Assembly (NCBI GenBank): GCA_902805615.1
Contig: CADCTQ010000208.1
Coordinates: forward strand, 3,574 to 67,573
Direction: 5' to 3'
Source: an uncultured Cytophagales bacterium
Lineage (GTDB): Bacteria; Bacteroidota; Bacteroidia; Cytophagales; 172606-1
DNA length: 64,000 nt
The position numbers and the translations under genes were made by a program. The notes beneath the pieces are model-generated. The model ran no database searches. It saw only the letters and a program-made list of their open reading frames with translations, and had not been told where the DNA came from. Shown in pieces: positions 23,405 through 59,500 of this stretch; positions within the stretch are counted from its first letter, which is position 1; each line of letters opens with the position of its first letter.

Positions 23405-23570
23405 CAGAAAGTCAATTGATTGATGCGCTGATTGCGGCCGGCATCAAGGTGCAGTTGCTCAATAATGACCAGATAAAGATTACGGTTCCCGACGGTCCTT
23501 ACGACAAAGAGTTGCTGGAAAAGCTGCGGCGGCAGAAATCCGGGGTGGTCGAATACCTGAAAAAGATCGG
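23401..23570 (+). other. TubC-N-like NRPS docking domain
   Basis: MTESQLIDALIAAGIKVQLLNNDQIKITVPDGPYDKELLEKLRRQKSGVVEYLKK follows the pattern of TubC-type N-terminal docking domains (L..L...G..l......l....P.G....EL...L...K..l...L) and precedes the first C domain. Confidence 0.6.
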
Positions 23571-37537: not shown

Positions 37538-38830
37538 ATGCCTGATTTCGTTGTAAAAAGCCTGCGGTCACCTTCCCAACGCTGGATCGAAAACCATTCT
37601 AACCACGCGTTAGGAACCCTCATCCGACTTTCGCTCCGGGAAGTCCCCGAGGCTGACCCGTTTACCGCATCCTTCCGGCAGTTATTGTCGCGGCATCACA
37701 TCCTGAGCGCCAGTGGCACTGATCCGTACCAGGAGGCGCCGTCGCTGGAGGTACTGGACAGGGCCGGTCTGGCCGCTGCCAATGGCCGGGAAGCAGACCC
37801 GTGGCTTGGGTTCAAACGGCGCATTGTGAACGAACGCGCCTTCAGGGTGTGGCTGGTAAAATCTGCCGGCGGGGCCAAAGTGTTTTTGTACCTGCCCGCG
37901 GTCATCGGCGACGCCGCGTCGGCGGTGCACCTGTGCCGGGAGTTGATCGGGTTTTACCGGGGCAGTGAAACTTTGCCAACTTCCGCGCCGCCACTGCAAT
38001 TTGCCCAGTACGCCGCCTGGCACAATGAGCTTTTGGACGAACCCAACGCGGAAGCGGAAATGTTTTGGCAGCAGTTCTCCGGCCGGATGCCATTGCCGAG
38101 AAAACTTACCGTTGAAAAAAATGGCGGACCAGAAAGGGATTCGTTACTGGACAGCATCCGGTTTGCGATTCCCGGGGGGGACAACGTGCGCACCCCTGCG
38201 GGCGGGGAGCGCCTGCCCGGGGAGTCGTTTATGTTGACCTGCTGGAGCGTCGTGCTTGCCCAGTACCTGGTGGAAGCAGATTACGTGATGGGCAGAATCG
38301 GTTCCGGGCGTTCGTATGATTTGTTTGAGAATATTACCGGTCCTTTTTCGCGGCCGTACCCCGTGAATATAGCCTTTCCTGCGTCAACGACGTTCGCAAC
38401 GGCGGTACGGGAAGTAACGGCCCAGTTGGCCCTCGCCCAAGCGTGGCAGGACCACCTGAACCTGGAAAAGTTTAACCCGCCCCCAACCTCGTCCGCCGGT
38501 TCCTTCTTCCCGTTCGGTTTTGAGCTGATTCCCGCGGATGAAACGTTACGCCAGTTTACGGACGAATGCATAGAAGACGTGTATACCCTGTGCGAGCCGT
38601 TCAAGCTGAAATTGCTGGCCTTGGCCGGGAAGGCTGACGTACAGTTTCAACTGTATTTTGATCCGGCGCTTTACGACCGCGAATTCGTGGTGGTGTTGCG
38701 GGACCGGTTCACCCGTGTTTTCAGTAAAGCGGTTTCCGATCCGGAGGTGACCCTGACCGACCTGCGGGCGGCTACCGCCGAGGATCTGCAATACATTGCG
38801 GCGCACGCCGGATGGAACGACGACCGCCCC
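37538..38830 (+). other. full-length condensation-like domain lacking the catalytic His motif (interface-like or pseudo-C domain)
   Basis: Fold-length region with C-like features (FAQYAAWHNELL, MFWQQF, PLPRKL) but no HH: the motif position reads LPAVIGDAAS. It lies directly downstream of the SyrP-like gene and directly upstream of an Asp-type A domain. Confidence 0.65.
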
Positions 38831-44712: not shown

Positions 44713-47700
44713 ATGTTGTCGAAGGAAAACATAAAAGACATTTATGGATTATCTCCCTTGCAGGAAGGCATACTTTTCCACAACCTGCTTGATGCCGAAG
44801 AGGACACCTACTTCCGGCAGTCCGCCTACAGAATTGAGGGATCGCTGGACGTGGAGGCGGCCAGGAAAAGCTTCAACGGTTTGTCGGCCCGTCACGACGT
44901 CTTAAGGACCGTGTTCAACTACTCGAAGGGCATGAAGCCGCTGCAAATTGTACTGAAGCAACGCGACGTGGATTTTTATTACGAAGATTTGCGCACGCTT
45001 AGCCCGGCCGGCAAGGAGCAGTACATTGAGGAATTCAAGAAATCGGATGCTAAAAAATCTTTCGACATCACCAAGGATGTTTTAATCCGGATATCGATCT
45101 TCCGGCGCGAAGAGAACAGCTACGAATTGATTTGGAGTGACCACCATATTTCAATGGATGGCTGGTGCAGAAAAATTCTTTACACGGAATTCGCGCAACT
45201 CTACATTGGTCACCTGAAAGGCATCCCGGCTGCCTTCCAGCCGGTTACCCCCTTCAGCGCGTACATCAAGTGGATTGAGAGCCGGAATAAGAGCGCTTCA
45301 CTGGCGTACTGGTCCGGCTATCTGAAGGGGTACGACGTGCCCGTGGAGATCCCCCGGCTGAGGATTGCCGAGGGTACAACCTACAAAAGCGAGGTCGTGA
45401 GCCGCCCGCTGACTGAGGAGAAGACAAGCGCATTGAAAGCGCTGGCGAAGACATTCGGGACCACCTTAAACGTGCTGTTCCAGGTAATCTGGGGATCAAT
45501 CATCGCCAAATACCACAACAGGAATGACGTTGTGTTCGGTGCCGTCGTATCCGGCAGGCCCCCGGAAATACCCGGGATCGAGTCGATGGTAGGGCTGTTT
45601 ATCAATACAATACCGGTCAGGGTACAGTTTGCCCACGACCAAGCCTTCGACGACGTATTGCTTCAGTGCCACCAGCATTTCACCGAGGCCGAGTCGCACC
45701 ACTACTGCCAGCTCGCCGACATACAATCCGCCTCCGAGCTGAAACACAAGCTCTTTGACCACATCCTTATTTTTGAAAACGTTCCGGTCAGCGAGTCCGA
45801 TGAAGCGGCCACCGATGCCGGCCTTGGGTTTCAACTCTCCCATCATGATGCACGGGAACATACCAATTATGACCTCGACGTGACGATTGGCATTGGTCAG
45901 CAGTTGACGCTGCAGATTACTTACAATGAACACGTGCACGACCGCTGCTTTGTCGAGAACCTGTTTGAGCACTTCGGGAACGTGGCCGACCAGGTGCTGG
46001 CCAATCCCCGCCTGGGCATGAGCCGCCTCAAACTGATCTCCCCGGCTGAAGAAGCCCAGGTATGCTTTGGGTTCAACAAGGCCGAAAAGCGGTATGACGG
46101 CGACCTGACAATCATCGGGCGGTTTGAATACCAGGCGGAAAAGAATCCGGGGGCACCGGCGGTCATTCACAACGGCCGGCAATTGACCTACGGGGCGCTT
46201 AACCAGCAGGCAAACTGCCTGGCGAATTTCCTAATCGGGTCCGGATTCAGGAAGGGAAGTTTTGCGGGGGTTTGCCTGGACAGAGGCTTGGACCTCGTCG
46301 TTGCCATGCTGGCTATTGCAAAGGCAGGGGGCGTATACGTGCCGTTCTCTACCGGTCATTCGGTTTCCAGAACGCACCTGATGATTGAGCAGAGTGAGGT
46401 TTCCGTTCTTTTTGCAACGGCCCGTTTCGTGAACGAGAATGCGGAATTTCTGCAAAAGGGTAGCTTCCCGGAGACCATTGTGCACTTTGCGGACCACGGC
46501 GGCTGGAAGGCTCCGGACGAGGTGCTGGCGGAACGCACCGTATCGGCGGCTGCCATTTACGCATCGGGCAACGGCAATAATCCGCCTGCGGGTTTGTTGC
46601 AGGCGGATAACCTGTACATGATCTATACCTCCGGTTCAACCGGAACGCCCAAAGGCGCCCTTATCCGTCAAGACGGCGCCCTGAACCATATATTGGCTGA
46701 GTTCGAATTCCTGCGATTGAACGGGGCTTTAAGGATCCTGCAAAGCGCCAATATTTCGTCCGACATTTCGGTCTGGCAGATACTGGCGCCCCTCACTTGT
46801 GGAGGCGCCACGGTGGTCATCGATCACGACGACCTGCTCGAGTACGACAAACTTTGTGAGGTCATCACCGGGGGAAAGATAGACCTGATGGTACTGGTCC
46901 CTTCCTTTCTGGTGGGATTCCTGGAGTACCTGGGCAGCGCGGCCGGGCCTGCAAACCGTTTTCCGGACCTGAAGTACGTACTGGTCGGAGGGGAAGACGT
47001 TACGGTTGGTTTGGTCAACGCGTGGCTTCGCCTTTTCCCCCACGTTCCGGTAGTGAACGCCTACGGGCCTGCCGAAGCTTCCGACGACGTGCTGCAAAAC
47101 ATTGCGACGCAGCCATTGCCCCCGGGAACCCGGAAATTTCCCATCGGCAAGCCGTTGTCCAACATAAACGTTTTTATTGTCGACAATGCCATGAACCTGC
47201 AACCGGTCGGGGCCTGCGGTGAGATATGCGTTTCCGGCGTAGCCGTCGGCGCTGGTTACTGGCGGGACGAGGAACGGACCAGGCAGGCTTTTGTGCCTAA
47301 CCCTTTTGCGGGAACGCTGGGCGATACGATCTATAAAACGGGTGACATCGGAAGGTGGTTGCCGGATGGCAACGTCGAATTCTTCGGCCGGGCTGATCGC
47401 CAGGTTAAGATCAGGGGCCACCGGATTGAACTTGAGGAAGTGGATTTTGCCCTGAAATCGGACGCGGCGGTGATGGATGCGGTCACCGACGTGCGAAAGA
47501 ACGAGCAGGGCAACCAAGTCATCGCTGCGTACCTCATACCGCGGGTGAAGCCCGGCGAAGCAGCCCGGGAGCAGGCGTTTATCGACGCCGTCCGCAATAA
47601 CGTCAAGGGAAGACTGCCGGAATACATGCGGCCGGCCTGGTACGTGGTGATGGATCACTTTCCCGTCAACCGGAATCACAAGGTGGACCGGAAGGCATTA

Positions 47701-50700
47701 CCCGATCCGGTATTCGGGCGAATCCACGGGGCGGCGGAAAACCTGCACCCGAAAACGGAGGTGGAACGGGAACTCCTCAAAATCTGGTCATCGGTGCTGG
47801 GCGTGAGCCACCCGGGCCCGACCGACAATTTCTTCGACCTGGGCGGCCATTCCCTGAAGGCCGTCCAGCTGATGATGCAGATTCAGAAGGTGTTTGGTCA
47901 TAAGATCAGTTTAAAATCCATATTTTCTTACAGCACGTTGCGGGAGCAGGCGGCGTACATCGAAAAAGCAACGGTCGTCAAAAGGTCGGGTCCCGGCAAC
48001 GCGGAGGCCTACCGGCTTTCCCCGTTCCAGAAACGGGTCTGGGTAATCGACGCTTTCCCGCACAGCAGCACGATCAACAATCTTTTCTTTGCCTACCGGT
48101 TTTCGGGCCTCGACCCCGCCGTTTTCAAAGCGGCGTTTCACCACTTCATCCGCCGGCACGACGTACTGCGGAACACCTTTTTACTGGTGAACGGGGAGCC
48201 CCACCAAACTACCAACGAGACCGACGCATTCGGCGACGACCTGCTGGCCGGTGAGGTGCATGACCCACGGCAACTGGCGCTGCCCGAAATGGCAGCAGCC
48301 GAGTTGATGCGGCCGTTTGATCTGCAAAAAGGGCCTTTGTTCCGCGCAAAGCTGATGAACGTGGGCCGGGAAGAATACCTGTTCGTCTTCTGCCTGCACC
48401 GGATCGTTTCCGAAGGGCTTTCGGAACCCGTGATCATGAAGGACCTGGTGCGGATGTACCGGAATCAACTTGACGCCCACGCGGAAGGGCGGCAGGCAGC
48501 CAGCAAAAAGCACAAGGAAACCCTCGACGACTTCTACCAACGGCTGCATGGCGGCTTCTTCGAAAAGCAAAAATTATTCTGGCGTTCGAAGTTGGATGAT
48601 GACTTGCCGCGCCTGGAAGTGCCGCACGACCTGCCGCGCCCTGCCGATAAGTCTTACCGGGGCGGTACGGACGTAATGGTGTTGGATGAGCAGCTTTCGG
48701 ACGAGATTGCAACGCTGGGGCACCGGTTCGGCATCACCACCGGCGAGTTGCTGGTGTCGCTGTGCAAGGTGTTATTGTACCGCTATACGGGGCAGACGGA
48801 CGTCGTCGTAGGATACCTTCCCTGGATGGAAGCACCGGCCGGTGGATCGGGCCGCAATCCGCTGGCCAGCCCGCTGCCGCTGCGCACAACGTTCGTTGCC
48901 GGTGACCGTTTCGAAGGCCTGCTTGCCAACGTACGTGCCGGGGTTTCGGACCTCAAAAACAACTTCCTGTATCCCTTCGAGCTGATCATTCAGGATTTGC
49001 AGCTTACCCGGGACGTCAGCCGGGCGCCGCTTTTCGACGTGGTCATGGCCGAGAAAAGGGAGTTGGTGTTTGGCCCGGAATCCGAAGCGTACCGGCGGGG
49101 TGTGGCAACAAGGGAATCCGTCGAGATCCCGTTTTGCAGCCACGACCTGATCATCCATTTCGGCAGGAACGCCCGCGCCATCGTTCTGGAGATCGCCTAC
49201 AGTAAAGACTTGTTTTCCCCCGGCTGGATTCAGCGGTTCAAGGCCCACTTTGCGCAACTGGCGTCGGCGGTGCTGAGGGCGCCGGCCCAGAAACTGGCGG
49301 AACTGGACTACCTGACGGAAGCCGAAAAGCATGCGGTGGTATCATCGTTTAATTCCGGACCGGATCTTTACCCTGCGGGGAGCGTGCTGAAGCTGTTCGA
49401 GGAGCAGGTCCGGGCAACCCCCGGTGCGGTCGCGGTGCAGTACGGCAACCAGGGGCTGACGTTTGCCGACCTGGATAAGCAAGGGCGCCGGCTGGCAAAC
49501 CGGATGGCGGCTGAATACGGCATTGCGAAGGGCGATTTCGTGGGCATCCTGGCAAGGCATACCGACCAGATGATCGTTGCGTTGGTCGCCACGCTAAAAC
49601 TAGGCGCCGTGTACATCCCCATCGACGCTGAATCTCCGGATAACCGCATCCTGGCAATCGTGCGGGACGCCGCGGTCAAATTACTCATCAGTGACCGGCT
49701 GGTCTCCCCGGAAATCGGGCATGCCGTGGCAATGCTTCAGCTGGGCGGCGCGATGGACGAGGTCCCCGGTACGCCGGATGCACCAATGCCGCCGGAAATG
49801 CTGCCCGACGACGTTGCGTACGTACTGTACACTTCGGGAACGACGGGGCGGCCCAAGGGGGTGATGGTCACGCACCGGGGACTAAGCAACTACGCGCAAT
49901 GGCTCGGCGAAAAATTTGAAATCGGCCCGGGCGACCATACCATGCTGCTGTCTTCCTTTGCGTTTGATCTCGGGTATACCAGCCTGTGGGGAAGCTTGCT
50001 TTCCGGAATGACGCTGCACCTGGCAGATGATCTTCTGATCCGTACCCCGGAACGTTTGATTGCCTACATCGCCGAAAACAAGATCACTTTTCTCAAACTT
50101 ACCCCATCCCTGTTTCACGTACTTTGCCTGGGCGCCAATTTCGGTACGCTGCAAAGGAGCCACTTGCGGTTCGTCCTGCTGGGCGGCGAAAGTCTTCACC
50201 CGGCCGACATTCTCAAATTCAAACAGGTAAACGATAAAGTAGTCTTCGTTAACCACTACGGACCCACTGAGGCGACCATCGGGTGTATCGTTAAAGTGCT
50301 GGACGATGCGTACCTCCGGAATTTCGACGGAAACCCGGTGATTGGGACGCCGATCCGCAATGCACAGTGCTACGTGCTTGACGACCAACTGAATGTATTG
50401 CCGGCCGGCATCCCGGGAAACCTGTACGTAGCCGGCAGCGGATTGGCCCGGGGGTACCTCAACAACCCCGAATTAACGCGCACAGCGTTTATCAGCCCGG
50501 ACTTTCCCGGAGGAAGAACCCTGTATAAAACCGGGGACAAGGCAAAGTGGCTTCCCACGGGCGAGATTGTGTTTTTAGGCAGGGGCGACAGCCAGGTAAA
50601 GATCCGCGGGTACCGGGTGGAACCGCTCGAGGTACAAGCCCTCCTGCAAAAGTTGCCCGGCGTTGACAAAGTTGCCGTTGTTGTTCAGAAGAACAACCAA

Positions 50701-53700
50701 AATCAGAACGTCCTTGCCGCGTACCTTGCCACGCGCCGCCCCAACGACATTGCCTACTACCGGAAGTACCTGGGCGAACACCTGCCGGAGTTCACGATTC
50801 CGGCTTACTTCTACGAAGTCGAAGAATTTCCCTTAACCCGGAACGGGAAAGTTGATTTGCGGACGTTGACGGCAGCCAGTAAGCCGCTGGCGTCGGCGCA
50901 GGAGCGGGTTGCGCCCCGGACGGCAATCGAACGTGAATTAGCGGCAATTTGGGAAGAGGCACTCGAACGGACCGCAGTCGGGGTGTACGACAACTTCTTC
51001 GAAATTGGCGGGGATTCGCTCGTGGCGGCTTACATCATTGCCGTCATTCACAAGAAACTCAACGTGCTGGTGAGCCTCGGCATTTTGTTCAGGCACCCGA
51101 CCATTGCGTCGCTGGCGCAGGAGATCGAACAATTAAAGCCGGACCTCTACGAGGAAATACGGCCCGTCGAAGAGCAGGAATTTTACGGTCTGTCGCACGC
51201 CCAGAAAAGATTATGGATCGTAAATCACATCGGTGGCAGCCAAAAGGCCTACATCATGCTCTGGCCCTACGTACTCGACACCTTGGACCGCAATGCCTTT
51301 GAACGGGCCCTCCTGGCCCTCGTGCGCCGCCACGACATTCTGCGAACCGTCTTTCTTACCGTAGACGGCGAACCCCGGCAGAAAGTCCTCAGTCCGGAAG
51401 CATTTGCTTTTAGGGTGGAGTACGTCGACCTGCGCGGCCACGCGGGGCAGAACGAACGGGTGCAGCAATACGTAAACGACGAGCTAAACCTACCGTTCGA
51501 TTTTACCAGGGCCCTGCTCAGGTGCAAGCTCATCCAGGTGGACCAGCAGAAATTCGTGCTGCTGTTTACCATGCACCACATTACCTCCGACGGCTGGTCG
51601 GAGTACATCATACAAGACGAAATACTAAAGCTGTACCATGCTTTCCGCAACGGGGGGCAAGATCCGCTCGCGCCCCTGCGCATTCAGTACAAAGACTATT
51701 GCGCGTGGCAGAACGTGCAGCTTTCCGGAAGCCGGTTGAAACGGCACCAGTCGTACTGGCTGAAGCAATTCGAGGAGCCGGTATCCAGGCTGAAATTGCC
51801 CACCGATTTCCCGCGGCCGGCGCTGCAGACGTTCAGCGGTGCAATCCATTTTTTTCGCATCGACCCGGAGTTGCAGCAACGCCTCAATGGGATGGCCCGC
51901 GAAAACGGGGCGAGTCTGTTCATGACCTTGCTGAGCGGGGTCAGCGTGCTGTTGTACAAATACACCCACCAGACGGACATCGTGCTCGGCACGGCAGCCG
52001 CGGGCCGGGACCACGTGGACCTCGGCAGCCAGGTCGGTTTCTACGCCAACATTTTACCGATCAGGTTGCGGTTCTCCGACGCAGGAAGTTTTCACCAACT
52101 GCTCACCGATGCCCTCGACGTAACCCTGGAAGCATTCGAACACCAACTCTACCCGTTTGACCTGCTCATCGACGATCTTAACCTGGAACGGGACCTGAGC
52201 CATTCTCCGTTGACCGACGTAATGGTGGTGATGCAGAACATCGCTTCCGGCGATGAAGATGCCGGCAACCTGGGAGACGTGTCACCCGAGGCGCTCAGCG
52301 ACGTAGAATATGCCGCGGCAAAATATGACCTGATCTTCACCTTCCGGGAAACGGCGGGAGGCATTCAGGCCAAGGTCTCCTACAACACTGACCTGTTTAA
52401 AAAGGATACCATCGAACGCTTGTCCGAACAACTGATCATTCTGCTGAATGAGATCGTCAAGGACCCGGCGGCCCCGGTGGTGGCGCTGAATTACCTCAGC
52501 GAAAAAGACTCACGAGACATTCTTTTCGGGTACAACCATACTGCCGTTCCTTATCCGTCGTCTTCGTCGCTGCCGCTGCTGTTTGAGCAAACCGTAAACG
52601 CCAACCCGGACGCAGTCGCACTGGTCAGTGAGCACTCAACTCTTACGTACCGCCAGCTGAACGAACGGGCCAACGCAATTGCCAACCACGCGCGGGATGT
52701 TTATCGAATCGGGCCCAACGCGCTGGTAGGCCTGATGATTGACGAACCCGAACTGGCCATTGTTTGTATGCTTGGCATTGTCAAGGCCGGCGCTGCCTAC
52801 GTGCCCATTGATCCGAACTACCCGGCCGAAAGGAAAAAATTCATTCTTGACGACACCAACCTCGGGGTCCTCATCACCAGGGCCGGACACGGGCGGGACC
52901 TGGCCTCGTTTTACACCGGGGCCTTGCTGGAAGTAGACGCGGAACGGGATGACTGGGTGGAAAACGGGAATAAGACGAACCCTCCCGTTGTCAACGGGCC
53001 GCATGACCTGACCTACGTGATATACACCTCCGGCTCTACCGGGCAGCCCAAAGGGGTGATGGTTGAACACCGGAGTGTGATCCGGCTGGTACGCAATACA
53101 AACTATATCTCCGTTGAACCCGACGACCGGATTCTGCAGGCATCGCCCCTGGCTTTTGACGCATCGACCTTCGAAATCTGGGGAACCTTGCTCAATGGCG
53201 CGTCTTTGTACCTGACCACCAAAGACACTTTGCTGTCTGCCCAGCGACTGGGCGCTTTTCTGAAGGCAAGCGAAATCACCAAAGCGTTTCTCACCACGGC
53301 ACTCTTTAACCGGCTGATCGACGCGGATGAAGACATTTTCGCCGGGTTGAAGGTGCTTTTGGTCGGCGGCGAAATCCTTTCCCCTTCTCACATTCAAAAA
53401 GCCCGGAAAAGTGCCTCCTTGTCCATCAATAACATTTACGGCCCGACGGAGAACACTACCTATTCAACTTACTGGGAGATCACAACCGACTACGCGCACA
53501 ACATTCCCATCGGCCGGCCGATAGCCAATAGCACGGCCTATATTCTCGATGCCCACCTGAACCCGGTGGGGACAGGAATACCCGGTGAGTTGTACGTAGG
53601 AGGGGACGGCCTGGCCCGGGGGTATTTGAACAATGCAGCCCTCACCGCGGAACGGTTTATCGGCAACCCTTTCGTACCCGGCGACCGCCTCTATAAGACC

Positions 53701-55737
53701 GGCGACGTGTGCCGGTGGCTGAGTGACGGGGCAATTGCCTTCCTGGGCCGGAATGATGACCTGGTCAAGCTGCGGGGTTACCGCATTGAGCCGGGTGAGA
53801 TCGAAAACAAGTTGCTCGAGCATCCCGGCGTCAACGAAGCGATTGTGGTCGTCAACAGCGATCCGGCCGGCGACAAGTACCTGGCGGTATACTACACGAC
53901 CCAAAGGGACCTGCCGGTGCACGAGGTAAAGCACTTTCTGACGACGTCTTTGCCCGCCTACATGGTGCCGTCTTACTTCGTTGCATTGCAAGCAATGCCG
54001 TTGAACGCAAACGGCAAGATTGACCGCACGAAGTTGCCGGCGGCGAATGTTTCCGGGGAAGACGGCGGAATTGCCAGCCTGGCTACGCACAATGAAACCG
54101 AAATGCAACTGGTCGAAATCTGGAAAAATATTCTTGGGAAAGACCAAATCGGCGTGCACGCCAACTTCTTTGAAAGGGGCGGCCACTCCTTAAAAGCCGT
54201 GCAGCTGATCACGCAGGTGCACAAGTTGCTGGACGTAAAAATCGAGTTGAAAGATATTTTTCTGGCGCCTACCGTAGCGTTGCTGGCCGGGGTGATAGCC
54301 GGCAAAGCCAGACAGGCGTACCAGGAGCTGGATGCAATTGAAGAACAGCAGCATTACCGCGTCTCGCACGCCCAGAAGAGGCTCTGGGTGCTCAGCCAGT
54401 TCAGGCGCGCAGACAGCAGTTACAATGTTTCGTCCGCTTACGAACTCGAAGGACTGGATTTGCGGGCTTTTGAAAAGGCCTTCGAAACGATTGTGCAGCG
54501 GCACGAAATCCTGCGTACCACGTTTATTGTGGCCGACGGCGAGCCCAAACAGAAAGTCCACGACCTCGCGACCATTGCGTGCAAGCCGGAACAGGTTGAT
54601 CTCACCGGCCTAGTCCACCCGGCGGAAGTGGCCCGGGAGATGGCCGACAATGAGAGCAGCACCCCTTTCGACCTGGAAAGGGGGCCCCTGATCCGTTGCA
54701 AGCTGCTTAAGTTGGGGGATCGCAGTCACATGCTCCTGCTCACCATGCACCACATCATTACCGATGGAGATTCCGCCGGCGTGTTCATCAAAGAATTCTT
54801 AGCGTTGTACTACGCCTTTAAGAACGGCACTGTCCCCCGGCTGCCCCCGTTGAACATCCAGCACAAGGATTATTCCGCCCGGCAGAACGGCCAGGTAAAG
54901 CAGGGCAAACTGGATGAACATCGTGCGTATTGGCGGGAGAAGTTCAGGGACCATGCCGCCAACTCGGGGATACCCGTTGACTACGAACGGCCCAAACTCC
55001 GGTCGGTGCAGGGAAGCCGCGTGGGAACCACCCTGCCCGCGGAACAAGCCGCCGGCCTCCGGAGCATCGGTGAACAAAGCGGCACCACGTTGTTTACGAC
55101 ATTTCTATCCGTCGTGAACGTACTGCTCTACAAGTATACTGACCGGTCCGACATTACCATCGGAACGCCCGTCAGCAACCGGGAATTAAAGTCTTTGGAG
55201 AATCAGATTGGGTTTTACGTCAATCTTTTGCCCCTGAAAAATGAGGTCCGGGGCGATCTTACCTTCACGGCGTTTCTGCAAACCGTTAAAAACAATTGCA
55301 TTGAGGCGTTCAGCCACCAGGCGTATCCTTTTGATTTGCTCGTCGAAGACGTGGTCAAACTGCGCGATCCGAGCCGGCACCCGTTATTCGATGTATTGAT
55401 CAACGTCAGGCTGTTTGAACGGCCGGCTTCGCCCGACGGGCCGCATTCGTTCGATCAGGACCTGATCATCAGAAATGTGGATGCTGACAAAGGAGAAGAA
55501 AGCAAACTGGATTTGCGCATCGTGTTGCAGGACCTGGGCGATGAAATGCAGATTGAAATCTACTATAACACCGATTTGTTCAAGAAAGAACGGATCAATG
55601 TCCTGTTGGGCAAGCTCGAAAAGTTGATCACGGAAATTGTTTCCGGGCCAAACCGGAAAATCGATGATTTAACGGTGAACCCTCCCCACGAGAGCACCCG
55701 GAAGGCAAAGAAATTCAAGGCCGACTTCACATTCTAA
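44713..55737 (+). CDS. NRPS-5: C(DCL)-A-T-C*(HRxxxEG)-A-T-C-A-T-C
   Basis: 3674-aa ORF. Motifs, in order:
- N-terminal DCL C: IYGLSPLQEGILFH, HHISMDGWC
- A: YTSGSTGTPKGALIRQ
- T: LGGHSLKA
- C-like domain with CLHRIVSEG
- A: YTSGTTGRPKG
- T: IGGDSLVA
- C: HHITSDGWS
- A: YTSGSTGQPKGVMVEH
- T: RGGHSLKA
- terminal C: HHIITDGDS
Hand-extracted codes: DIWVLGADDK (no confident match), DLTKLGHIGK (Asp-type) and DAFFLGITYK (Ile/Val-like). Confidence 0.97.
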   Translation: MLSKENIKDIYGLSPLQEGILFHNLLDAEEDTYFRQSAYRIEGSLDVEAARKSFNGLSARHDVLRTVFNYSKGMKPLQIVLKQRDVDFYYEDLRTLSPAGKEQYIEEFKKSDAKKSFDITKDVLIRISIFRREENSYELIWSDHHISMDGWCRKILYTEFAQLYIGHLKGIPAAFQPVTPFSAYIKWIESRNKSASLAYWSGYLKGYDVPVEIPRLRIAEGTTYKSEVVSRPLTEEKTSALKALAKTFGTTLNVLFQVIWGSIIAKYHNRNDVVFGAVVSGRPPEIPGIESMVGLFINTIPVRVQFAHDQAFDDVLLQCHQHFTEAESHHYCQLADIQSASELKHKLFDHILIFENVPVSESDEAATDAGLGFQLSHHDAREHTNYDLDVTIGIGQQLTLQITYNEHVHDRCFVENLFEHFGNVADQVLANPRLGMSRLKLISPAEEAQVCFGFNKAEKRYDGDLTIIGRFEYQAEKNPGAPAVIHNGRQLTYGALNQQANCLANFLIGSGFRKGSFAGVCLDRGLDLVVAMLAIAKAGGVYVPFSTGHSVSRTHLMIEQSEVSVLFATARFVNENAEFLQKGSFPETIVHFADHGGWKAPDEVLAERTVSAAAIYASGNGNNPPAGLLQADNLYMIYTSGSTGTPKGALIRQDGALNHILAEFEFLRLNGALRILQSANISSDISVWQILAPLTCGGATVVIDHDDLLEYDKLCEVITGGKIDLMVLVPSFLVGFLEYLGSAAGPANRFPDLKYVLVGGEDVTVGLVNAWLRLFPHVPVVNAYGPAEASDDVLQNIATQPLPPGTRKFPIGKPLSNINVFIVDNAMNLQPVGACGEICVSGVAVGAGYWRDEERTRQAFVPNPFAGTLGDTIYKTGDIGRWLPDGNVEFFGRADRQVKIRGHRIELEEVDFALKSDAAVMDAVTDVRKNEQGNQVIAAYLIPRVKPGEAAREQAFIDAVRNNVKGRLPEYMRPAWYVVMDHFPVNRNHKVDRKALPDPVFGRIHGAAENLHPKTEVERELLKIWSSVLGVSHPGPTDNFFDLGGHSLKAVQLMMQIQKVFGHKISLKSIFSYSTLREQAAYIEKATVVKRSGPGNAEAYRLSPFQKRVWVIDAFPHSSTINNLFFAYRFSGLDPAVFKAAFHHFIRRHDVLRNTFLLVNGEPHQTTNETDAFGDDLLAGEVHDPRQLALPEMAAAELMRPFDLQKGPLFRAKLMNVGREEYLFVFCLHRIVSEGLSEPVIMKDLVRMYRNQLDAHAEGRQAASKKHKETLDDFYQRLHGGFFEKQKLFWRSKLDDDLPRLEVPHDLPRPADKSYRGGTDVMVLDEQLSDEIATLGHRFGITTGELLVSLCKVLLYRYTGQTDVVVGYLPWMEAPAGGSGRNPLASPLPLRTTFVAGDRFEGLLANVRAGVSDLKNNFLYPFELIIQDLQLTRDVSRAPLFDVVMAEKRELVFGPESEAYRRGVATRESVEIPFCSHDLIIHFGRNARAIVLEIAYSKDLFSPGWIQRFKAHFAQLASAVLRAPAQKLAELDYLTEAEKHAVVSSFNSGPDLYPAGSVLKLFEEQVRATPGAVAVQYGNQGLTFADLDKQGRRLANRMAAEYGIAKGDFVGILARHTDQMIVALVATLKLGAVYIPIDAESPDNRILAIVRDAAVKLLISDRLVSPEIGHAVAMLQLGGAMDEVPGTPDAPMPPEMLPDDVAYVLYTSGTTGRPKGVMVTHRGLSNYAQWLGEKFEIGPGDHTMLLSSFAFDLGYTSLWGSLLSGMTLHLADDLLIRTPERLIAYIAENKITFLKLTPSLFHVLCLGANFGTLQRSHLRFVLLGGESLHPADILKFKQVNDKVVFVNHYGPTEATIGCIVKVLDDAYLRNFDGNPVIGTPIRNAQCYVLDDQLNVLPAGIPGNLYVAGSGLARGYLNNPELTRTAFISPDFPGGRTLYKTGDKAKWLPTGEIVFLGRGDSQVKIRGYRVEPLEVQALLQKLPGVDKVAVVVQKNNQNQNVLAAYLATRRPNDIAYYRKYLGEHLPEFTIPAYFYEVEEFPLTRNGKVDLRTLTAASKPLASAQERVAPRTAIERELAAIWEEALERTAVGVYDNFFEIGGDSLVAAYIIAVIHKKLNVLVSLGILFRHPTIASLAQEIEQLKPDLYEEIRPVEEQEFYGLSHAQKRLWIVNHIGGSQKAYIMLWPYVLDTLDRNAFERALLALVRRHDILRTVFLTVDGEPRQKVLSPEAFAFRVEYVDLRGHAGQNERVQQYVNDELNLPFDFTRALLRCKLIQVDQQKFVLLFTMHHITSDGWSEYIIQDEILKLYHAFRNGGQDPLAPLRIQYKDYCAWQNVQLSGSRLKRHQSYWLKQFEEPVSRLKLPTDFPRPALQTFSGAIHFFRIDPELQQRLNGMARENGASLFMTLLSGVSVLLYKYTHQTDIVLGTAAAGRDHVDLGSQVGFYANILPIRLRFSDAGSFHQLLTDALDVTLEAFEHQLYPFDLLIDDLNLERDLSHSPLTDVMVVMQNIASGDEDAGNLGDVSPEALSDVEYAAAKYDLIFTFRETAGGIQAKVSYNTDLFKKDTIERLSEQLIILLNEIVKDPAAPVVALNYLSEKDSRDILFGYNHTAVPYPSSSSLPLLFEQTVNANPDAVALVSEHSTLTYRQLNERANAIANHARDVYRIGPNALVGLMIDEPELAIVCMLGIVKAGAAYVPIDPNYPAERKKFILDDTNLGVLITRAGHGRDLASFYTGALLEVDAERDDWVENGNKTNPPVVNGPHDLTYVIYTSGSTGQPKGVMVEHRSVIRLVRNTNYISVEPDDRILQASPLAFDASTFEIWGTLLNGASLYLTTKDTLLSAQRLGAFLKASEITKAFLTTALFNRLIDADEDIFAGLKVLLVGGEILSPSHIQKARKSASLSINNIYGPTENTTYSTYWEITTDYAHNIPIGRPIANSTAYILDAHLNPVGTGIPGELYVGGDGLARGYLNNAALTAERFIGNPFVPGDRLYKTGDVCRWLSDGAIAFLGRNDDLVKLRGYRIEPGEIENKLLEHPGVNEAIVVVNSDPAGDKYLAVYYTTQRDLPVHEVKHFLTTSLPAYMVPSYFVALQAMPLNANGKIDRTKLPAANVSGEDGGIASLATHNETEMQLVEIWKNILGKDQIGVHANFFERGGHSLKAVQLITQVHKLLDVKIELKDIFLAPTVALLAGVIAGKARQAYQELDAIEEQQHYRVSHAQKRLWVLSQFRRADSSYNVSSAYELEGLDLRAFEKAFETIVQRHEILRTTFIVADGEPKQKVHDLATIACKPEQVDLTGLVHPAEVAREMADNESSTPFDLERGPLIRCKLLKLGDRSHMLLLTMHHIITDGDSAGVFIKEFLALYYAFKNGTVPRLPPLNIQHKDYSARQNGQVKQGKLDEHRAYWREKFRDHAANSGIPVDYERPKLRSVQGSRVGTTLPAEQAAGLRSIGEQSGTTLFTTFLSVVNVLLYKYTDRSDITIGTPVSNRELKSLENQIGFYVNLLPLKNEVRGDLTFTAFLQTVKNNCIEAFSHQAYPFDLLVEDVVKLRDPSRHPLFDVLINVRLFERPASPDGPHSFDQDLIIRNVDADKGEESKLDLRIVLQDLGDEMQIEIYYNTDLFKKERINVLLGKLEKLITEIVSGPNRKIDDLTVNPPHESTRKAKKFKADFTF
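48000..49330 (+). other. internal condensation-like domain with a degenerate active site (H-R-I-V-S-E-G instead of HHxxxDG)
   Basis: tgc ctg cac cgg atc gtt tcc gaa ggg at 48391-48417 encodes CLHRIVSEG. The second (catalytic) His is replaced by Arg and the Asp by Glu. The domain is otherwise C-like (YRLSPFQKRVW, FDLQKGPLFRAKL, LFWRSKL, LPRPADKS). Confidence 0.8.
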
Positions 55738-55843: not shown

Positions 55844-56590
55844 ATGATAAAGGAAGAAGGATTGGTCAACTATGACCTGGCAGAAGATTATTGGCTAAAA
55901 AAAGTAAAAAACGTCGAGTGGCGCCGACTCCCCGTTTTTCATTCCGGAAAAGCGTACGGTTCCGGCGCGGGCTTGGAAGAGTTCAGGTTTCCTTTTCCGC
56001 CGAAACTTTCCGCCGAGCTTCGTTCCAAGTCAAAGGATACGCCCTCCAACGTGTACTTGTTGCTTTTAACGGCATGCAACATCTTACTGCATAAGTACTG
56101 GCAACATCCCGACGTACTGGTCGCCACTACGGGGTTTGCTGACCAGGAAGAAGATGCCGCCGAAGACGTCCTCCTGTTTTTTAGAAATTCTATCACCGAT
56201 GCCACCACGCCGCGCGAACTGCTCAACAACGCGCTGGATGATCTGAACCTGGCCTATGAACACCAAAGATTCGACTTCGAATCCCTGGTGAAGACGTTCA
56301 CGGCCAATGAAGCGGGTGATCTACACGCGCTCTACCAGGTGGGACTGGTTTTAATGGGCTTCAACCGGGTAAACAAAAACGGGCTGCTTGACCGGCTCAA
56401 GCTCTTGTTCAGGATTGACCAGGAAGACAGTGGTTTTGGGCTGAGCGTACAATATGATCCCGTCTTCTTCGACCGGTTCATTGTGCAGCAGATGGCCCGG
56501 AACTTCATCCACCTGATCGGCGCGGCCATGAAGGAGATTGACCAGCCGGTTGCCCTGCTGAGCGCAGCGTCACCCGAAGAAAAACTGCAC
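55844..56590 (+). other. vestigial C-terminal subdomain of a condensation domain at the NRPS-6 N-terminus
   Basis: LAEDYWLKKVKNVEWRRLP...LLLLTACNILLHKYWQHPDVLV...AYEHQRFDFESLV has the same layout as the NRPS-2 N-terminus. It has no HHxxxDG half and runs into an Asp-type A domain (ELFEQHAAANPDGIAL). Confidence 0.6.
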
Positions 56591-59500
56591 CTGCTTGGAA
56601 CACCGGAGCGGATCACCCCGCTCCATCCCGGATGGTCCGTTAAAGAACTGTTCGAGCAACACGCCGCGGCCAATCCGGACGGCATTGCCCTGCGGGCCGC
56701 GGAGGTACGCATGACCTTTCGGGAACTCAATGAACACACCAACCGGATTGCGCACCAGTTGCGGGAGCAATACCAGGTGATGCCCGGCGATTTTGTGGCC
56801 GTCATTTCTGACAGGGCGCATTTGGCGGTTATTGGCATGCTGAGTGCGATCAAGTCCGGGGCTGTATTTGTACCCATTCCCGTGGAAATGCCCCGGGAGC
56901 AGGTCGCGTACGTGCTCCGCGATACCCGGGCCAAGGTCCTGCTGACGGATTCGCGGCTGCTTTTTCATCTTACCGACCTGACTCAGTGCGAATTGTTCGC
57001 GCTGGACCTGCAGGTAGCGGCCGAAGCCGATGGCCGCAATCCCGAACTTTCCCTTTCCCCCGAAGACCCGCTTTACGCGATTTATACGTCCGGCACCACG
57101 GGAGTGCCCAAGGGAGTGCTCATCAGGCACGGGGCTTTGCTCAACTACGTGGGCTGGTTTACGGAAAAATTCGGCCTCACGCCTCAGGACCGGACGGTCC
57201 TCCTCTCGTCGTACGGGTTTGACCTGGGCTATACCAGCATTTGGGGAAGCTTGCTGAACGGCGCCGCCCTCCACGTGGTGGACAACCAGACCATCAAGGA
57301 CCCCGACCGCCTGGTTGCTTACTTAACGGCGCACGAAATTACGTTTATCAAGCTGACGCCGTCGTTGTTTTTTATGTTGATGCAGGCGTCCAACCGGCAT
57401 CAGTTAACCACGAGCAAGGTTCGCCTGGTGCTGTTGGGGGGGGAGGAAATTAACGTAAAGATCATTGCGGATTATAAAAAACTGAAAGGCGATACCGTTT
57501 TCGTCAATCACTACGGCCCGACGGAAGCAACGATAGGCTGCATCACGCACGTGATTGATGATGGGGAACTGACGCAATACCAACCGCAGCCCGTCATCGG
57601 GCGCCCGGTAAAGAACGCCAGTTGTTACATCCTCGATACCCATTTTCAGCCCGTCCCCGTCGGGGTGAAAGGGGAGCTTTGCATCTCCGGGCCCGGCCTG
57701 GCCGCGGGCTACCTGAACCAACCCGAGCTGACGAACGAAAAGTTTGTGAGCAATCCGTTCGCGAAAGGAGAATTTCTGTACCGCACCGGCGACCTCGCCC
57801 GGTGGTTGCCGGAAGGGACGATCCAATTCCTGGGAAGAGGAAAGGGCGATGAGCAGGTTAAAATACGGGGGTACCGGGTGGAATTGTCCGAAATAAAAAA
57901 AGTGCTGGAAGAACATGCCGCCGTCCGGGACAGCCTGCTGATCGTCCACCAGGATTCCGAAGGACACAAAAACATCGCGGCGTACGTGCTCACGGCCGCT
58001 GAACCGAAAGAGTTGCGGGAGTACCTGACCAGGCACCTGCCCGAGTACAAAGTGCCCGCTTACCTGATGAAGTTGGATGCCATTCCTTTGACGCCTAACG
58101 GGAAGATCAATTTCAAAGCGCTGCCCGATCCCCGGCAGGAGGCAGGCAGGAATCATTTCCAGGTACCACCCCAGAACAAAACCGAAGAAACCCTGCTGGA
58201 AATCTGGCAGCAGGTGCTCGGCCGCCAGTACATCGGCGTTACGGATGACTATTTCGAGTTGGGCGGCAATTCGTTGAAAGGCGTGCTCATCATCAATAAA
58301 ATGAGGTCGCACTTTAAACGGGACCTGTCGGTTGTTGACTTATTTGATTTCCCCACGATCAGGGCGCTGGCCGGCCACCTGCTGAAGGAGGAAACCGGGA
58401 AGGCCCGCGGTGCGGAAACGGGTGGGGAGGCCGGGTTCGGGAATGCCATCCGGCCGGTGGAAAGCAGCACGTACTACGAGGTTTCCCACGCCCAGAAACG
58501 CTTGTGGATTGTTTCGCAGCTGGGCAACGAGGGCCTGGCCTACATCCAGCCGAGGGCGTACGTGCTGAACGGCGAACTATCGGTGGAGGCACTGACAAAG
58601 TCCTTCAAGACGCTGGTAGAAAGGCACGAAGTATTGAGGACAACTTTCGTTTCGGTGGATGGCCAACCCAAACAGCAGGTCCACCCGGCGGCCTCCTCCG
58701 GTTTTGCCGTAAAATGCGTTGACATTGAAAAAGAACCGGAAGCAATTCAGTCGGAAACTGTACGGGAACTGGTCCGGCAGGACGCAACCACGCTTTTCGA
58801 CCTCCAGAAAGGGCCCCTGCTGCGGGTGATGCTGGTCCGCAAGAGCGCACAGTGCCATGTGCTGTTATTTACGACGCACCACATTGTTTGCGATGCGTGG
58901 TCGATGCAGATCATTGTCGATGAACTGTCCACCTTGTACGGCCACTACAAAAAAGGTGGTTTGTTCAATCCGCTGCCGCCGCTGCCGATTCAATACAAAG
59001 ATTACGCCGCCTGGCATAACCAGCAGGTGATTGAAAATGCGGATGATGCGCATAAAGCTTACTGGATCGGCCAGTTTGCGTCCGGCATCACAACCCTCGA
59101 CCTGCCTACCGATTACAACAGGCCCTTGGTGAAGACCGTTAACGGGAAGACGGTGCGGAGGGTGCTCAACGAGCGTCACGTTGCCGCGCTGAAGGGGATC
59201 GGCAACAAACAGGGCGCCAGCTTCTTCATGACGATCCTGGCAACGATCAACGCGCTGTTCAACAGATACGTCAATAAGGAAGACATCGTCATTGGGGTTC
59301 CGGTTGCGGGAAGGTACAACGCCGATTTGAACAACCAGGTTGGGTTTTACGTCAATAACCTGGCCATCCGCACCCGGTTCAGCAGTGAAGAAAGTTTCGA
59401 AGCGTTGTTGACGAACGTCAAGCAAAGGTCACTCGAAGCGTTCAGGCATCAGGCCTACCCCTACGATTTGCTGGTTGAAGACCTGGACCAGCAGCGGGAC

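What the first reader, a model, noticed from the sequence alone, without database searches (positions are those of the whole stretch)
48000..49330. Internal condensation domain with HRxxxEG: the only module in the line without a canonical C domain
Counting domains, every module 1-15 has one canonical HHxxxD(G/A) C domain available. For NRPS-2, NRPS-4 and NRPS-6 it is supplied in trans by the preceding protein's terminal C.

The exception is NRPS-5 module 2. Its upstream C-like domain reads CLHRIVSEG: catalytic His to Arg, Asp to Glu. The following A domain is Asp-type (DLTKLGHIGK).

Possible explanations:
- the variant still condenses
- the module is skipped
- a C domain elsewhere acts twice
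- the domain has a recruitment or other chemistry role, as with interface or modifying C-domain variants
Basis: partly seen in the sequence, partly recalled or inferred. Interest (0 to 1): 0.7.

Follow-up and report, generated by a model that had tools for sequence, protein, structure and literature searches.

The report
Remodelled condensation domain lacking catalytic histidine
One peptide-bond-forming domain in the middle of a giant antibiotic-type assembly line has arginine where the catalytic histidine should be; the change is real and conserved, so the domain is most likely a scaffold or recruiting platform rather than an ordinary catalyst, which leaves open who makes that bond.

Summary
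Window 48001-49335 (+) encodes a full-length condensation-fold domain of NRPS-5 whose C3 motif reads CLHRIVSEG (48391-48417).

It is not a sequencing error. The codons are identical in three other assemblies, and a ~93%-identical orthologous cluster keeps the motif.

It is the only C-type domain between carrier domain T10 and the Asp-specific A11. All other canonical C domains are already assigned.

What it is:
- A divergent LCL-type C domain: LCL profile 267 bits against I-domain profile 125.
- Its catalytic centre is remodelled: His to Arg, Asp to Glu, Trp to Leu, and motifs C4 and C5 lost.
- Between the two lineages C1, C2, C3 and C6 are invariant, while C4/C5 evolve about four times faster than in the canonical C domains (p=0.001).
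- dN/dS is 0.36, against 0.22 for canonical C/E domains and 0.41 for the degenerate N-terminal C-like domains.

It is not an interface (I) domain. The true I domain is the N-terminus of NRPS-4, directly after the TauD hydroxylase gene.

Internal C domains without the second His are rare: about 2 of about 686 surveyed.

Best reading (0.4): an X/I-like scaffold in a probable beta-hydroxy-Asp module that passes the chain on by proximity. Full activity, trans rescue or other chemistry are not excluded. Moderately interesting; needs biochemistry.

The parts
48001..49335 (+). Cvar: full-length C-fold domain (NRPS-5 aa 1097-1541), LCL-derived, with a remodelled active site
   Evidence: Pfam PF00668. 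phmmer envelope. Best PDB sequence hit is TycC6 LCL, 2jgp, E=1.6e-44. AF2 model pLDDT 88, pTM 0.89. LCL-HMM 267 bits against I-HMM 125 bits.
48391..48417 (+). C3 motif CLHRIVSEG (canonical xxHHxxxDG); the following residues are LS instead of WS
   Evidence: Identical codons in L007, L010, L011 and L094.
48496..48546 (+). C4-equivalent segment AASKKHKETLDDFYQRL (canonical xxxIQYKDYAxWQ): motif lost and fast-evolving
   Evidence: Deviations Q170K, Y171H, D173E, W177D. 6 of 19 residues differ from the orthologue.
48811..48885 (+). C5-equivalent segment GYLPWMEAPAGGSGRNPLASPLPLR: 6-aa insertion, loss of the IGFFVN strand, Asn to Ser
   Evidence: Alignment. Deviations R283S, G288-, N290S. pLDDT below 50 at domain residues 281-285. 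4 of 20 residues differ from the orthologue.
47770..47961 (+). T10 carrier domain (GGHSL) directly upstream, the donor side
46123..47700 (+). A10 adenylation domain, unusual code DIWVLGADD, substrate not assigned
49396..50868 (+). A11 adenylation domain, Asp-type code DLTKLGHIGK
   Evidence: dN/dS 0.16-0.18.
50935..51126 (+). T11 carrier domain (GGDSL), the acceptor side
   Evidence: dN/dS 0.07.
51175..52515 (+). Next canonical LCL domain (HHITSDGWS), which serves A12
44713..55737 (+). NRPS-5 ORF: DCL-A10-T10-Cvar-A11-T11-C-A12-T12-C
36435..37472 (+). Stand-alone TauD/TfdA-family Fe/2OG dioxygenase, the candidate Asp beta-hydroxylase
   Evidence: Pfam PF02668, E=9e-45. Homologues sit between a terminal C and an I-A-T protein in many of the 80 loci.
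37538..38845 (+). Bona fide interface (I) domain at the N-terminus of NRPS-4 (PAVIGDA in place of HHxxxDG), before Asp-specific A9
   Evidence: I-HMM 171 bits against LCL-HMM 55 bits.
55862..56650 (+). N-terminal C-lobe-only C-like element of NRPS-6, before Asp-specific A13

Best explanation
Cvar is an LCL-type condensation domain that has lost the ordinary His-dependent catalytic centre. It is kept as a folded platform inside the Asp-11 module.

Shown:
- It has a complete C fold.
- It is the only C-type domain between T10 and A11.
- The catalytic His is Arg, the structural Asp is Glu, and motifs C4 and C5 are gone and no longer constrained.
- The fold-defining motifs and the HRIVSEG loop itself are invariant between two lineages.
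- A11 and T11 are intact and strongly constrained.
- The cluster has one stand-alone TauD hydroxylase. Each of its three Asp modules has a non-canonical C-like element directly in front of the A domain.

Inferred:
- Like X domains (HRxxxDD) and interface domains, Cvar mainly positions partners. It holds the T10 and T11 arms, and probably presents T11-bound Asp (or the T10-bound residue) to a trans-acting tailoring enzyme, most plausibly the TauD beta-hydroxylase.
- Because no other C domain is free, the T10-to-T11 peptide bond is still made inside this domain, by proximity and orientation rather than by the canonical His. The rate is probably low, and the step may be gated by hydroxylation.
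For: - Motif and domain.
- Full-length, confidently modelled C fold.
- 14 of 47 highly conserved columns deviate, against 3-9 in the 12 LCL domains of the same cluster. The deviations cluster in C3, C4 and C5.
- Orthologue comparison. C1, C2, C3 and C6 show 0 of 62 substitutions. C4+C5 show 10 of 39, against 20 of 275 in seven canonical C/E domains (Fisher p=0.0013), and against 38 of 406 in the rest of Cvar (p=0.005).
- dN/dS is 0.36 (95% CI 0.23-0.55). Neutrality is rejected (p=2e-6). Canonical C/E domains give 0.20-0.22 and the N-terminal degenerate C-like domains give 0.35-0.41.
- Arg at this position is the hallmark of two non-condensing C-fold domains: the X domain (HRxxxDD) and the LovB CON domain (HRxxxDG) (PMC11546977 and PMC13492342).
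- Context: Asp code of A11, A9 and A13; the TauD gene; a true I domain on NRPS-4; the TauD/I-domain layout in 80 genomes.
- All canonical C domains are already assigned.
- A11 and T11 are constrained.
Against: - No direct evidence that TauD or any other enzyme binds Cvar, or that Asp-11 is hydroxylated.
- Cvar is not a member of the I-domain clade, and it sits in an elongation position where X and I domains are not found.
- I-like N-terminal domains in this cluster also precede non-Asp A domains (A4, A15), so 'degenerate C-like element = hydroxylase recruitment' is not a strict rule.
- The dN/dS excess over canonical C domains is only marginal: p=0.044 with three comparators, p=0.065 with seven. 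One canonical C domain, N5_Cterm, has a higher dN.
- The second His is dispensable in some C domains according to a review (PMC11546977), so loss of His does not prove loss of activity.
- An I domain was dispensable in vitro in the myxoglucamide system (PMC13638107).
Confidence: 0.4

Rival explanations
1. Tolerated variant. Cvar is still an ordinary, efficient condensation domain. Arg/Glu replace His/Asp without a functional consequence and the domain has no additional role.
For: - Collinearity requires a condensation here and no other C domain is free.
- The fold, C1, C2, C6, C7 and the C3 loop are conserved, and dN/dS is well below 1.
- The profile is LCL-like.
- The second His is not essential in every C domain (PMC11546977).
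- Another natural internal LCL domain with HE in place of HH exists: P0160.
Against: - Three active-site motifs are changed, not only the His. C4 and C5 have demonstrably lost constraint.
- The conserved Asn of C5 is Ser and half of its strand is deleted.
- Arg cannot act as a base or as a hydrogen-bond acceptor for the acceptor amine (inference).
- 625 of 628 surveyed internal C domains keep the second His.
- The known HR-type C-fold domains do not condense.
Confidence: 0.3
2. Dead domain with rescue or skipping. Cvar is catalytically inert. Either another C domain (a neighbouring one acting twice, or a stand-alone C outside the window) makes the bond, or module 11 is skipped.
For: - The degenerate C3/C4/C5 motifs.
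- This assembly line already uses C domains in trans at four protein junctions.
- About 23 kb of the 87-kb source contig was not seen.
Against: - A11 and T11 are under strong purifying selection (omega 0.16-0.18 and 0.07), so the module is used.
- All visible canonical C domains have their own donor and acceptor partners.
- A cis-linked T-C*-A-T leaves little room for a foreign C domain to reach both carrier arms (inference).
- Cvar itself is not neutral (p=2e-6).
Confidence: 0.15
3. Different chemistry. Cvar catalyses a non-amide or modifying reaction on the T10- or T11-bound intermediate, using the Arg/Glu pair. Examples would be an ester bond to a beta-hydroxyl, a ureido or branch linkage involving the unusual residue 10, or dehydration.
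For: - The HRIVSEG loop is invariant while C4/C5 drift.
- The A10 code is unusual (DIWVLGADD).
- The cluster encodes a carbamoyltransferase and three hydroxylases.
- C-fold domains are known to have diversified functions (PMC13638107).
Against: - Known ester-forming, dehydrating and beta-lactam-forming C domains keep the HHxxxDG motif (established knowledge; not tested here).
- No family of HRxxxEG domains was found: the nearest relatives are ordinary LCL domains at about 30% identity.
Confidence: 0.1
4. Sequencing or assembly artefact at the CGG codon.
For: None found.
Against: The sequence is identical in assemblies from three sequencing projects, and the motif is kept in a 93%-identical orthologue. 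Fourteen conserved positions deviate, not one.
Confidence: 0.01

Closest known systems
X domain of glycopeptide NRPSs (Tcp12; PDB 4TX2/4TX3)
   Same: An LCL-derived C fold with the second His replaced by Arg (HRxxxDD against HRxxxEG). It does not condense and is a platform that recruits trans-acting oxygenases to a carrier-bound substrate (PMC8949500, PMC11546977). 4tx2 gives the highest query TM-score to the Cvar model (0.84) and a sequence hit of E=1.5e-21.
   Different: The X domain sits after the last T domain and before the TE, in a module that already has its own C domain. It recruits P450s; none is visible here. Cvar is the sole C-type domain of an elongation module. Sequence identity is only about 25%, no better than to ordinary C domains.
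Interface (I) domain of beta-hydroxylase-associated NRPS modules (Reitz et al. 2019; GlmF system; MxgB)
   Same: A C-like domain without the catalytic His, directly upstream of an A domain whose carrier-bound substrate is beta-hydroxylated by a TauD-type enzyme. This cluster has such a hydroxylase and a true I domain on NRPS-4.
   Different: I domains read PAxxADx at the motif. They are N-terminal, follow a canonical C domain on the preceding protein (or in cis, as in P0035), and form their own profile family. Cvar scores 125 bits on the I profile against 267 on the LCL profile, is internal, and has no canonical C partner.
LovB-type CON domain of fungal iterative PKSs (HRxxxDG)
   Same: A C fold with the His-to-Arg change at the same position. 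It is not known to form peptide bonds (PMC6260248, PMC13492342).
   Different: It is a fungal PKS C-terminal domain in an unrelated context.
VibF C1, a catalytically inactive C domain
   Same: An internal C-fold domain kept for a structural role, dimerisation (cited in PMC8795117).
   Different: VibF has other active C and Cy domains that do the required chemistry. No such spare domain is visible here.
Canonical LCL condensation domains (e.g. TycC6, 2JGP)
   Same: Best sequence and fold match. Same position (T-C-A). C1, C2, C6 and C7 motifs are retained.
   Different: C3, C4 and C5 are not retained, and the profile score is about 60% of that of the cluster's own LCL domains.

Membership tests
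NRPS condensation-domain superfamily (PF00668 fold) | Two-lobed CAT-like C fold of about 450 aa | tested here: met
   Pfam hit. 48 PDB C-family hits. AF2 model pLDDT 88, with Foldseek TM 0.77-0.84 to C domains.
Canonical LCL condensation domain | HHxxxDG catalytic motif (C3) | tested here: not met
   HRIVSEG.
Canonical LCL condensation domain | Conserved C4 (YxDYAxW) and C5 (IGxFVNT) motifs | tested here: not met
   Deviations Q170K, Y171H, D173E, W177D, R283S, G288-, N290S. These segments are unconstrained between the lineages.
Canonical LCL condensation domain | Position between an upstream T domain and a downstream A domain, and best profile match to LCL | tested here: met
   T10-Cvar-A11. 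LCL-HMM 267 bits against I-HMM 125 bits. Best PDB hit is TycC6.
Interface (I) domain | Lacks the second His of HHxxxDG | tested here: met
   The residue is Arg.
Interface (I) domain | Sequence membership of the I clade (PAxxADx motif; I profile scores above LCL profile) | tested here: not met
   An I-HMM was built from 56 N-terminal I-like domains of other genomes. Cvar scores 125 against 267 on LCL; NRPS-4 N-terminus scores 171 against 55.
Interface (I) domain | Paired with a canonical C domain (usually the terminal C of the preceding protein), with the hydroxylase gene adjacent | tested here: not met
   Cvar is internal, has no partner C domain, and the TauD gene lies 10.5 kb upstream.
Interface (I) domain | Needed for, or assists, beta-hydroxylation of the downstream T-bound amino acid | not testable with these tools
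   Needs biochemistry. Only the context is available (Asp code, TauD gene).
X domain | HRxxxDD motif in an LCL-derived fold | tested here: inconclusive
   HR is shared but the tail is EG, not DD. Fold similarity does not discriminate.
X domain | Located between the last T domain and the TE of a glycopeptide NRPS; binds Oxy P450s | tested here: not met
   Elongation position. No P450 or TE in the 64-kb window or in the 10 kb downstream.
Cy (heterocyclisation) domain | DxxxxD motif followed by a Cys/Ser/Thr A domain | tested here: not met
   The motif is HRIVSEG and the A code is Asp. True Cy examples (L035, P0085) look different.
E (epimerisation) domain | HHxxxDGxSW motif, follows a T domain, followed by a DCL domain | tested here: not met
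   The cluster's E domains score 104-114 on the LCL profile and read HHL(V/I)(I/V)D(G/F)VSW. Cvar is followed by an A domain, and the next C is LCL-type by motif and profile score.

The most novel reading that the evidence does not exclude
A conserved elongation module whose only condensation-type domain has Arg for the catalytic His, and has lost C4/C5, nevertheless elongates the chain. That would be a natural His-independent condensation route, driven by proximity or by the Arg/Glu pair, possibly gated by beta-hydroxylation of the acceptor Asp. It would also combine the roles of a C domain and a tailoring-enzyme recruitment (X/I-like) domain in one domain.
Probability: 0.3. Interest if true: 0.7.

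Novelty: new variant of a known kind. Interest (0 to 1): 0.45.

Why it matters
The role of the second histidine of HHxxxDG is a long-running debate in NRPS enzymology. Genome-mining tools (antiSMASH 8) now flag C domains without it as inactive.

Here, evolution has kept a His-to-Arg domain in an obligatory elongation position of a large assembly line (at least 16 modules) in two diverged lineages. The neighbouring A and T domains are clearly in use. This gives a defined construct, T10-Cvar-A11-T11 with or without TauD, on which three things can be tested:
- whether condensation can proceed without the His;
- whether such domains recruit tailoring enzymes;
- how structure predictions should treat 'inactive' C domains.

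If it turns out to be a tolerated variant, the practical lesson is that motif-based 'inactive' calls can be wrong.

Tried and rejected
- **Close relatives of Cvar.** None in GTDB representative genomes or JGI metagenomes. The word-indexed protein search returned only short LCL fragments at about 30% identity. It seems not to return long NRPSs: no hit exceeded 771 aa and the query's own protein was missing.
- **Exhaustive representative search.** Hits are ranked by summed score over all C domains, so it returned only the query's own protein (P0029) plus generic giant NRPSs. Closer single-domain relatives could be hidden.
- **Reitz et al. 2019 (I-domain definition).** Not held. I built an I-domain profile from 56 surveyed loci instead.
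- **Chitinopeptin BGC as the source.** Considered and rejected. That product also has three beta-OH-Asp and CmlA-type genes, but the residue order and cluster content differ, and the source is an uncultured, Bacteroidota-like population.
- **Foldseek.** All C-family structures score alike (TM 0.77-0.84), so it gives no subtype discrimination.
- **Whole-domain dN/dS.** Only marginally different from canonical C domains (p=0.044-0.065). The per-motif analysis was more informative.
- **Internal no-His C-like domains in L035 and P0085.** These looked like analogues but are Cy domains (DxxxxD plus a Cys code).
- **Recent recombination as the cause of motif conservation.** Rejected. The 300-nt window holding the motif is 91.7% identical to the orthologue, which is typical for the gene.
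- **Look-up of NRPS-1 for upstream context.** Failed.
- **The A10 code.** It could not be assigned from the literature.
Full report
**1. What is in the window**

All large ORFs are on the + strand and form one NRPS cluster.

| Gene | Coordinates | Domains |
|---|---|---|
| NRPS-1 | 385-13128 | FAAL-T, then C-A-T three times, then a terminal C |
| NRPS-2 | 13268-23404 | C-lobe-only C-like element-A4-T, C-A5-T-E, DCL-A6-T |
| NRPS-3 | 23401-32289 | C-A7-T, C-A8 (FkbM-type MT insert)-T, terminal C |
| CmlA-like diiron hydroxylase | 32924-34549 | |
| NodU-like carbamoyltransferase | 34598-36319 | |
| TauD-family dioxygenase | 36435-37472 | |
| NRPS-4 | 37538-42010 | His-less C-like domain-A9-T-E |
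| MacB/FtsX permease | 42029-44431 | |
| NRPS-5 | 44713-55737 | DCL-A10-T10-Cvar-A11-T11-C-A12-T12-C |
| NRPS-6 | 55862 to beyond the window | C-lobe-only element-A13-T, C-A14 (MT)-T, terminal C |

Downstream of the window (locus L013) lie a second CmlA-like gene, a class-III aminotransferase and NRPS-7. NRPS-7 is a His-less C-like domain-A-T-C-A-T. A PKS follows.

**2. The observation**

The nine codons at 48391-48417 encode CLHRIVSEG. They sit in a 445-aa domain (48001-49335) that Pfam and phmmer recognise over its full length as a Condensation domain.

Stachelhaus positions were read from a MAFFT alignment of the 14 A domains. A11 is DLTKLGHIG, which is Asp-type. A9 and A13 are Asp-type too.

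Only module 11 lacks one.

**3. Not an artefact**

- The NRPS-5 protein is identical on an ENA assembly (L007). That locus is 99.986% identical to the window over 21.8 kb.
- An independent sample (Logan ERR10032585, L010) is 99.92% identical and carries the motif.
- A diverged orthologous cluster (Logan SRR27231847, L011/L094) is about 93% identical in nucleotides. It keeps CLHRIVSEGLSEP with identical codons, and also keeps the odd C5 loop.
- The 300-nt window holding the motif is 91.7% identical to the orthologue. That is typical for the gene, so the conservation is not explained by a recent recombination tract.

**4. What kind of domain it is**

- The best solved relative by sequence is the LCL domain TycC6 (2jgp, E=1.6e-44). 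The glycopeptide X domain is also hit (4tx2, E=1.5e-21).
- An AF2 model is confident (pLDDT 88, pTM 0.89). Its low-confidence residues include the C5-equivalent loop.
- Foldseek finds the whole C family at TM 0.77-0.84. The X domain is highest by query TM-score (0.84), but the differences are too small to discriminate.
- Within the cluster, Cvar is 24-30% identical to the LCL domains, which are 33-41% identical to one another. It is only 15-17% identical to the N-terminal C-like elements.
- Against a 43-sequence alignment, Cvar departs from the consensus at 14 of 47 columns that are at least 85% conserved. The cluster's 12 LCL domains depart at 3-9. Ten of the 14 lie in the three active-site motifs:
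  - C3: H134R, D138E, W140L
  - C4: Q170K, Y171H, D173E, W177D
  - C5: R283S, a deleted Gly, N290S
- C1 (SPFQKRVW), C2 (RHDVLRNTF), C6 (YPFE) and C7 (RDVSRAPL) are kept.

**5. Is it an interface domain?**

The definition of the I domain used here comes from papers citing Reitz et al. 2019, which was not held. [quoted passage not shown] It was indispensable for GlmF but dispensable in the myxoglucamide system (PMC13638107). antiSMASH 8 now carries I-domain profiles and flags C domains without catalytic residues as inactive (PMC12230676).

To test membership I fetched 80 loci around TauD homologues from GTDB genomes and annotated their C, A and T domains with HMMs.

- A consistent layout emerged across Chitinophaga, Nostocales, Acidobacteriota, Streptomyces and others. 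It reads [...A-T-C(HH)] [TauD] [I-A-T...].
- In these I domains the HHxxxDG motif reads PALCADA or similar.
- The A domain that follows has an Asp-, Asn-, Gln- or His-like code, or an unassigned one (my reading of the codes).
- Of 29 DLTK-type A domains in these loci, 25 have a non-HH C-like domain at the protein N-terminus; 24 of these are full-length or nearly so, and one is C-lobe only.

I then built profiles from these foreign sequences only:

| Domain | I profile (bits) | LCL profile (bits) |
|---|---|---|
| NRPS-4 N-terminus (PAVIGDA) | 171 | 55 |
| NRPS-7 N-terminus | 150 | 86 |
| Cvar | 125 | 267 |
| The cluster's canonical LCL domains | 200-255 | 400-487 |

So the NRPS-4 and NRPS-7 N-termini are true I domains. 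Cvar is a divergent LCL domain, not an I-family member. It is also internal rather than N-terminal.

**6. How unusual is it?**

I scanned 149 large NRPSs returned by the exhaustive search, which hold 628 full-length internal C domains directly upstream of an A domain.

- 617 read HHxxxD and 8 keep the second His.
- 3 lack it. One is a Cy domain (DALMADA plus a Cys code). One is an I-like domain sitting behind a canonical C in cis (P0035). One is a real analogue (P0160, HETVCDA).
- The 80-locus survey adds one more analogue (L082, HDSILDG) and one more Cy domain (L035).

True internal C domains without the second His and without a partner C are therefore about 2 in about 686.

No family of HRxxxEG domains was found. 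The exhaustive search ranks by score summed over all C domains, so closer single-domain relatives could have been missed.

**7. Evolutionary constraint**

Nei-Gojobori estimates between the window lineage and the 93% orthologue:

| Domain or group | dN/dS |
|---|---|
| Cvar | 0.36 (95% CI 0.23-0.55) |
| Seven canonical C/E domains, pooled | 0.22 (range 0.17-0.29) |
| A domains, pooled | 0.18-0.22 |
| N-terminal degenerate C-like domains, pooled | 0.41 |
| NRPS-4 I domain alone | 0.35 |

- Neutrality is rejected for Cvar (p=2e-6).
- The excess over canonical C domains is marginal: p=0.044 against three comparators and p=0.065 against seven.
- Cvar cannot be distinguished from the degenerate group (p=0.70).

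The substitution pattern is more telling.

- In Cvar the C1, C2, C3 and C6 segments show 0 of 62 changes.
- The C4- and C5-equivalent segments show 10 of 39 changes.
- The same C4+C5 segments of seven canonical domains show 20 of 275 (odds ratio 4.4, p=0.0013).
- The rest of Cvar shows 38 of 406 (p=0.005).

The fold and the HRIVSEG loop are therefore under selection, while the two other active-site motifs are not. A11 (0.16-0.18) and T11 (0.07) are tightly constrained, so the module is in use.

**8. Mechanism**

Shown:
- A conserved, folded C-type domain with a dismantled canonical centre.
- It is the sole C-type domain of an Asp module that is in use.
- The cluster has one stand-alone TauD hydroxylase and non-canonical C-like elements in front of all three Asp A domains.
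- No spare canonical C domain is present in the 64-kb window plus 10 kb downstream.

From the literature: Arg at this position characterises the X domain (HRxxxDD), which recruits P450s and does not condense. It also characterises LovB-type CON domains (HRxxxDG). VibF C1 is an inactive C domain kept for dimerisation. The catalytic role of the second His is debated, and mutating it does not abolish activity in every C domain.

Inferred (confidence 0.4): Cvar is mainly a positioning and recruitment platform. It most plausibly presents T11-bound Asp to TauD. The T10-to-T11 bond is still made within it, by proximity.

Rivals:
- A fully competent tolerated variant (0.3).
- An inert domain with trans rescue or module skipping (0.15).
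- A different reaction using the Arg/Glu pair (0.1).
- An artefact (0.01).

Caveats:
- I-like N-terminal domains here also precede non-Asp A domains, so they may serve subunit docking as much as hydroxylase recruitment.
- No interaction or product data exist.
- About 23 kb of the source contig was not seen.

**9. Verdict**

The finding is real, rare and conserved. It is best filed as a new variant of known non-canonical C-fold domains: X/I-like in signature and LCL in ancestry, but in an elongation position where those are not found.

It is moderately interesting. It will not surprise a specialist that degenerate C domains exist. A conserved one that must still pass the chain on is a useful natural test case for the His debate, and for automatic 'inactive C' calls.

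Noticed in passing
window 13268-14030, 37538-38845, 55862-56650; L013:17368-18700: Every junction where a protein ends in a canonical C domain is followed by a degenerate C-like element at the N-terminus of the next NRPS. It is full-length and His-less in NRPS-4 and NRPS-7, and a C-terminal lobe only in NRPS-2 and NRPS-6. It precedes both Asp and non-Asp A domains. The same 'C // C-like-A' layout recurs around TauD genes in many of the 80 loci read from unrelated genomes.
   Followed up: partly
window 28213-30630 (A8) and 59882-62310 (A14): Two interrupted A domains. A8 (Asn-like code DLTKIGEIG) carries an FkbM-type methyltransferase insert (PF05050). A14 carries a Methyltransf_11 insert.
   Followed up: no
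window 32924-34549, 34598-36319; L013:14158-15744, 15862-17283, 23649-: The cluster also encodes two CmlA-like diiron beta-hydroxylases, a NodU-like carbamoyltransferase, a class-III aminotransferase and a PKS beyond the window. The product is therefore a heavily hydroxylated or carbamoylated hybrid lipopeptide. It resembles chitinopeptins in features but not in residue order.
   Followed up: partly
window 54352-55701 (terminal C of NRPS-5): This canonical C domain (HHIITDGDS) has changes at the same three conserved aromatic positions that are altered in Cvar (W140D, Y171H, W177R). It also has the highest dN of the canonical C domains (0.063, omega 0.29).
   Followed up: no
window 47413-48312 (T10 and the first ~100 residues of Cvar): Nucleotide identity to the orthologous cluster is locally high (95-98% against about 92% elsewhere) and dS is very low (0.02-0.08). 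This may be a recombination tract or local codon constraint. It stops before the HRIVSEG codons.
   Followed up: partly
window 46123-47700 (A10); L057 ORF at 2150: A10 has an unusual specificity code (DIWVLGADD, with NAYGPAEASDD in core A5). A similar code (DIWEMTADD) occurs in a Nostoc locus, also behind a C-lobe-only element. The substrate is not assigned.
   Followed up: no
P0160 aa 1060-1503; L082 ORF at 106, aa 552-993; P0035 aa 3614-4029: Other natural oddities in foreign NRPSs. Two internal C domains lack the second His with no partner C domain (HETVCDA before a Val-like A domain; HDSILDG before a Gly-like A domain). One has a cis C-I-A(Thr) arrangement.
   Followed up: partly
window 385-2360: NRPS-1 starts with a FAAL-like adenylation domain and a carrier domain (lipoinitiation). 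A PKS and an aminotransferase lie at the far end of the cluster, so gene order may not be collinear with assembly order.
   Followed up: no
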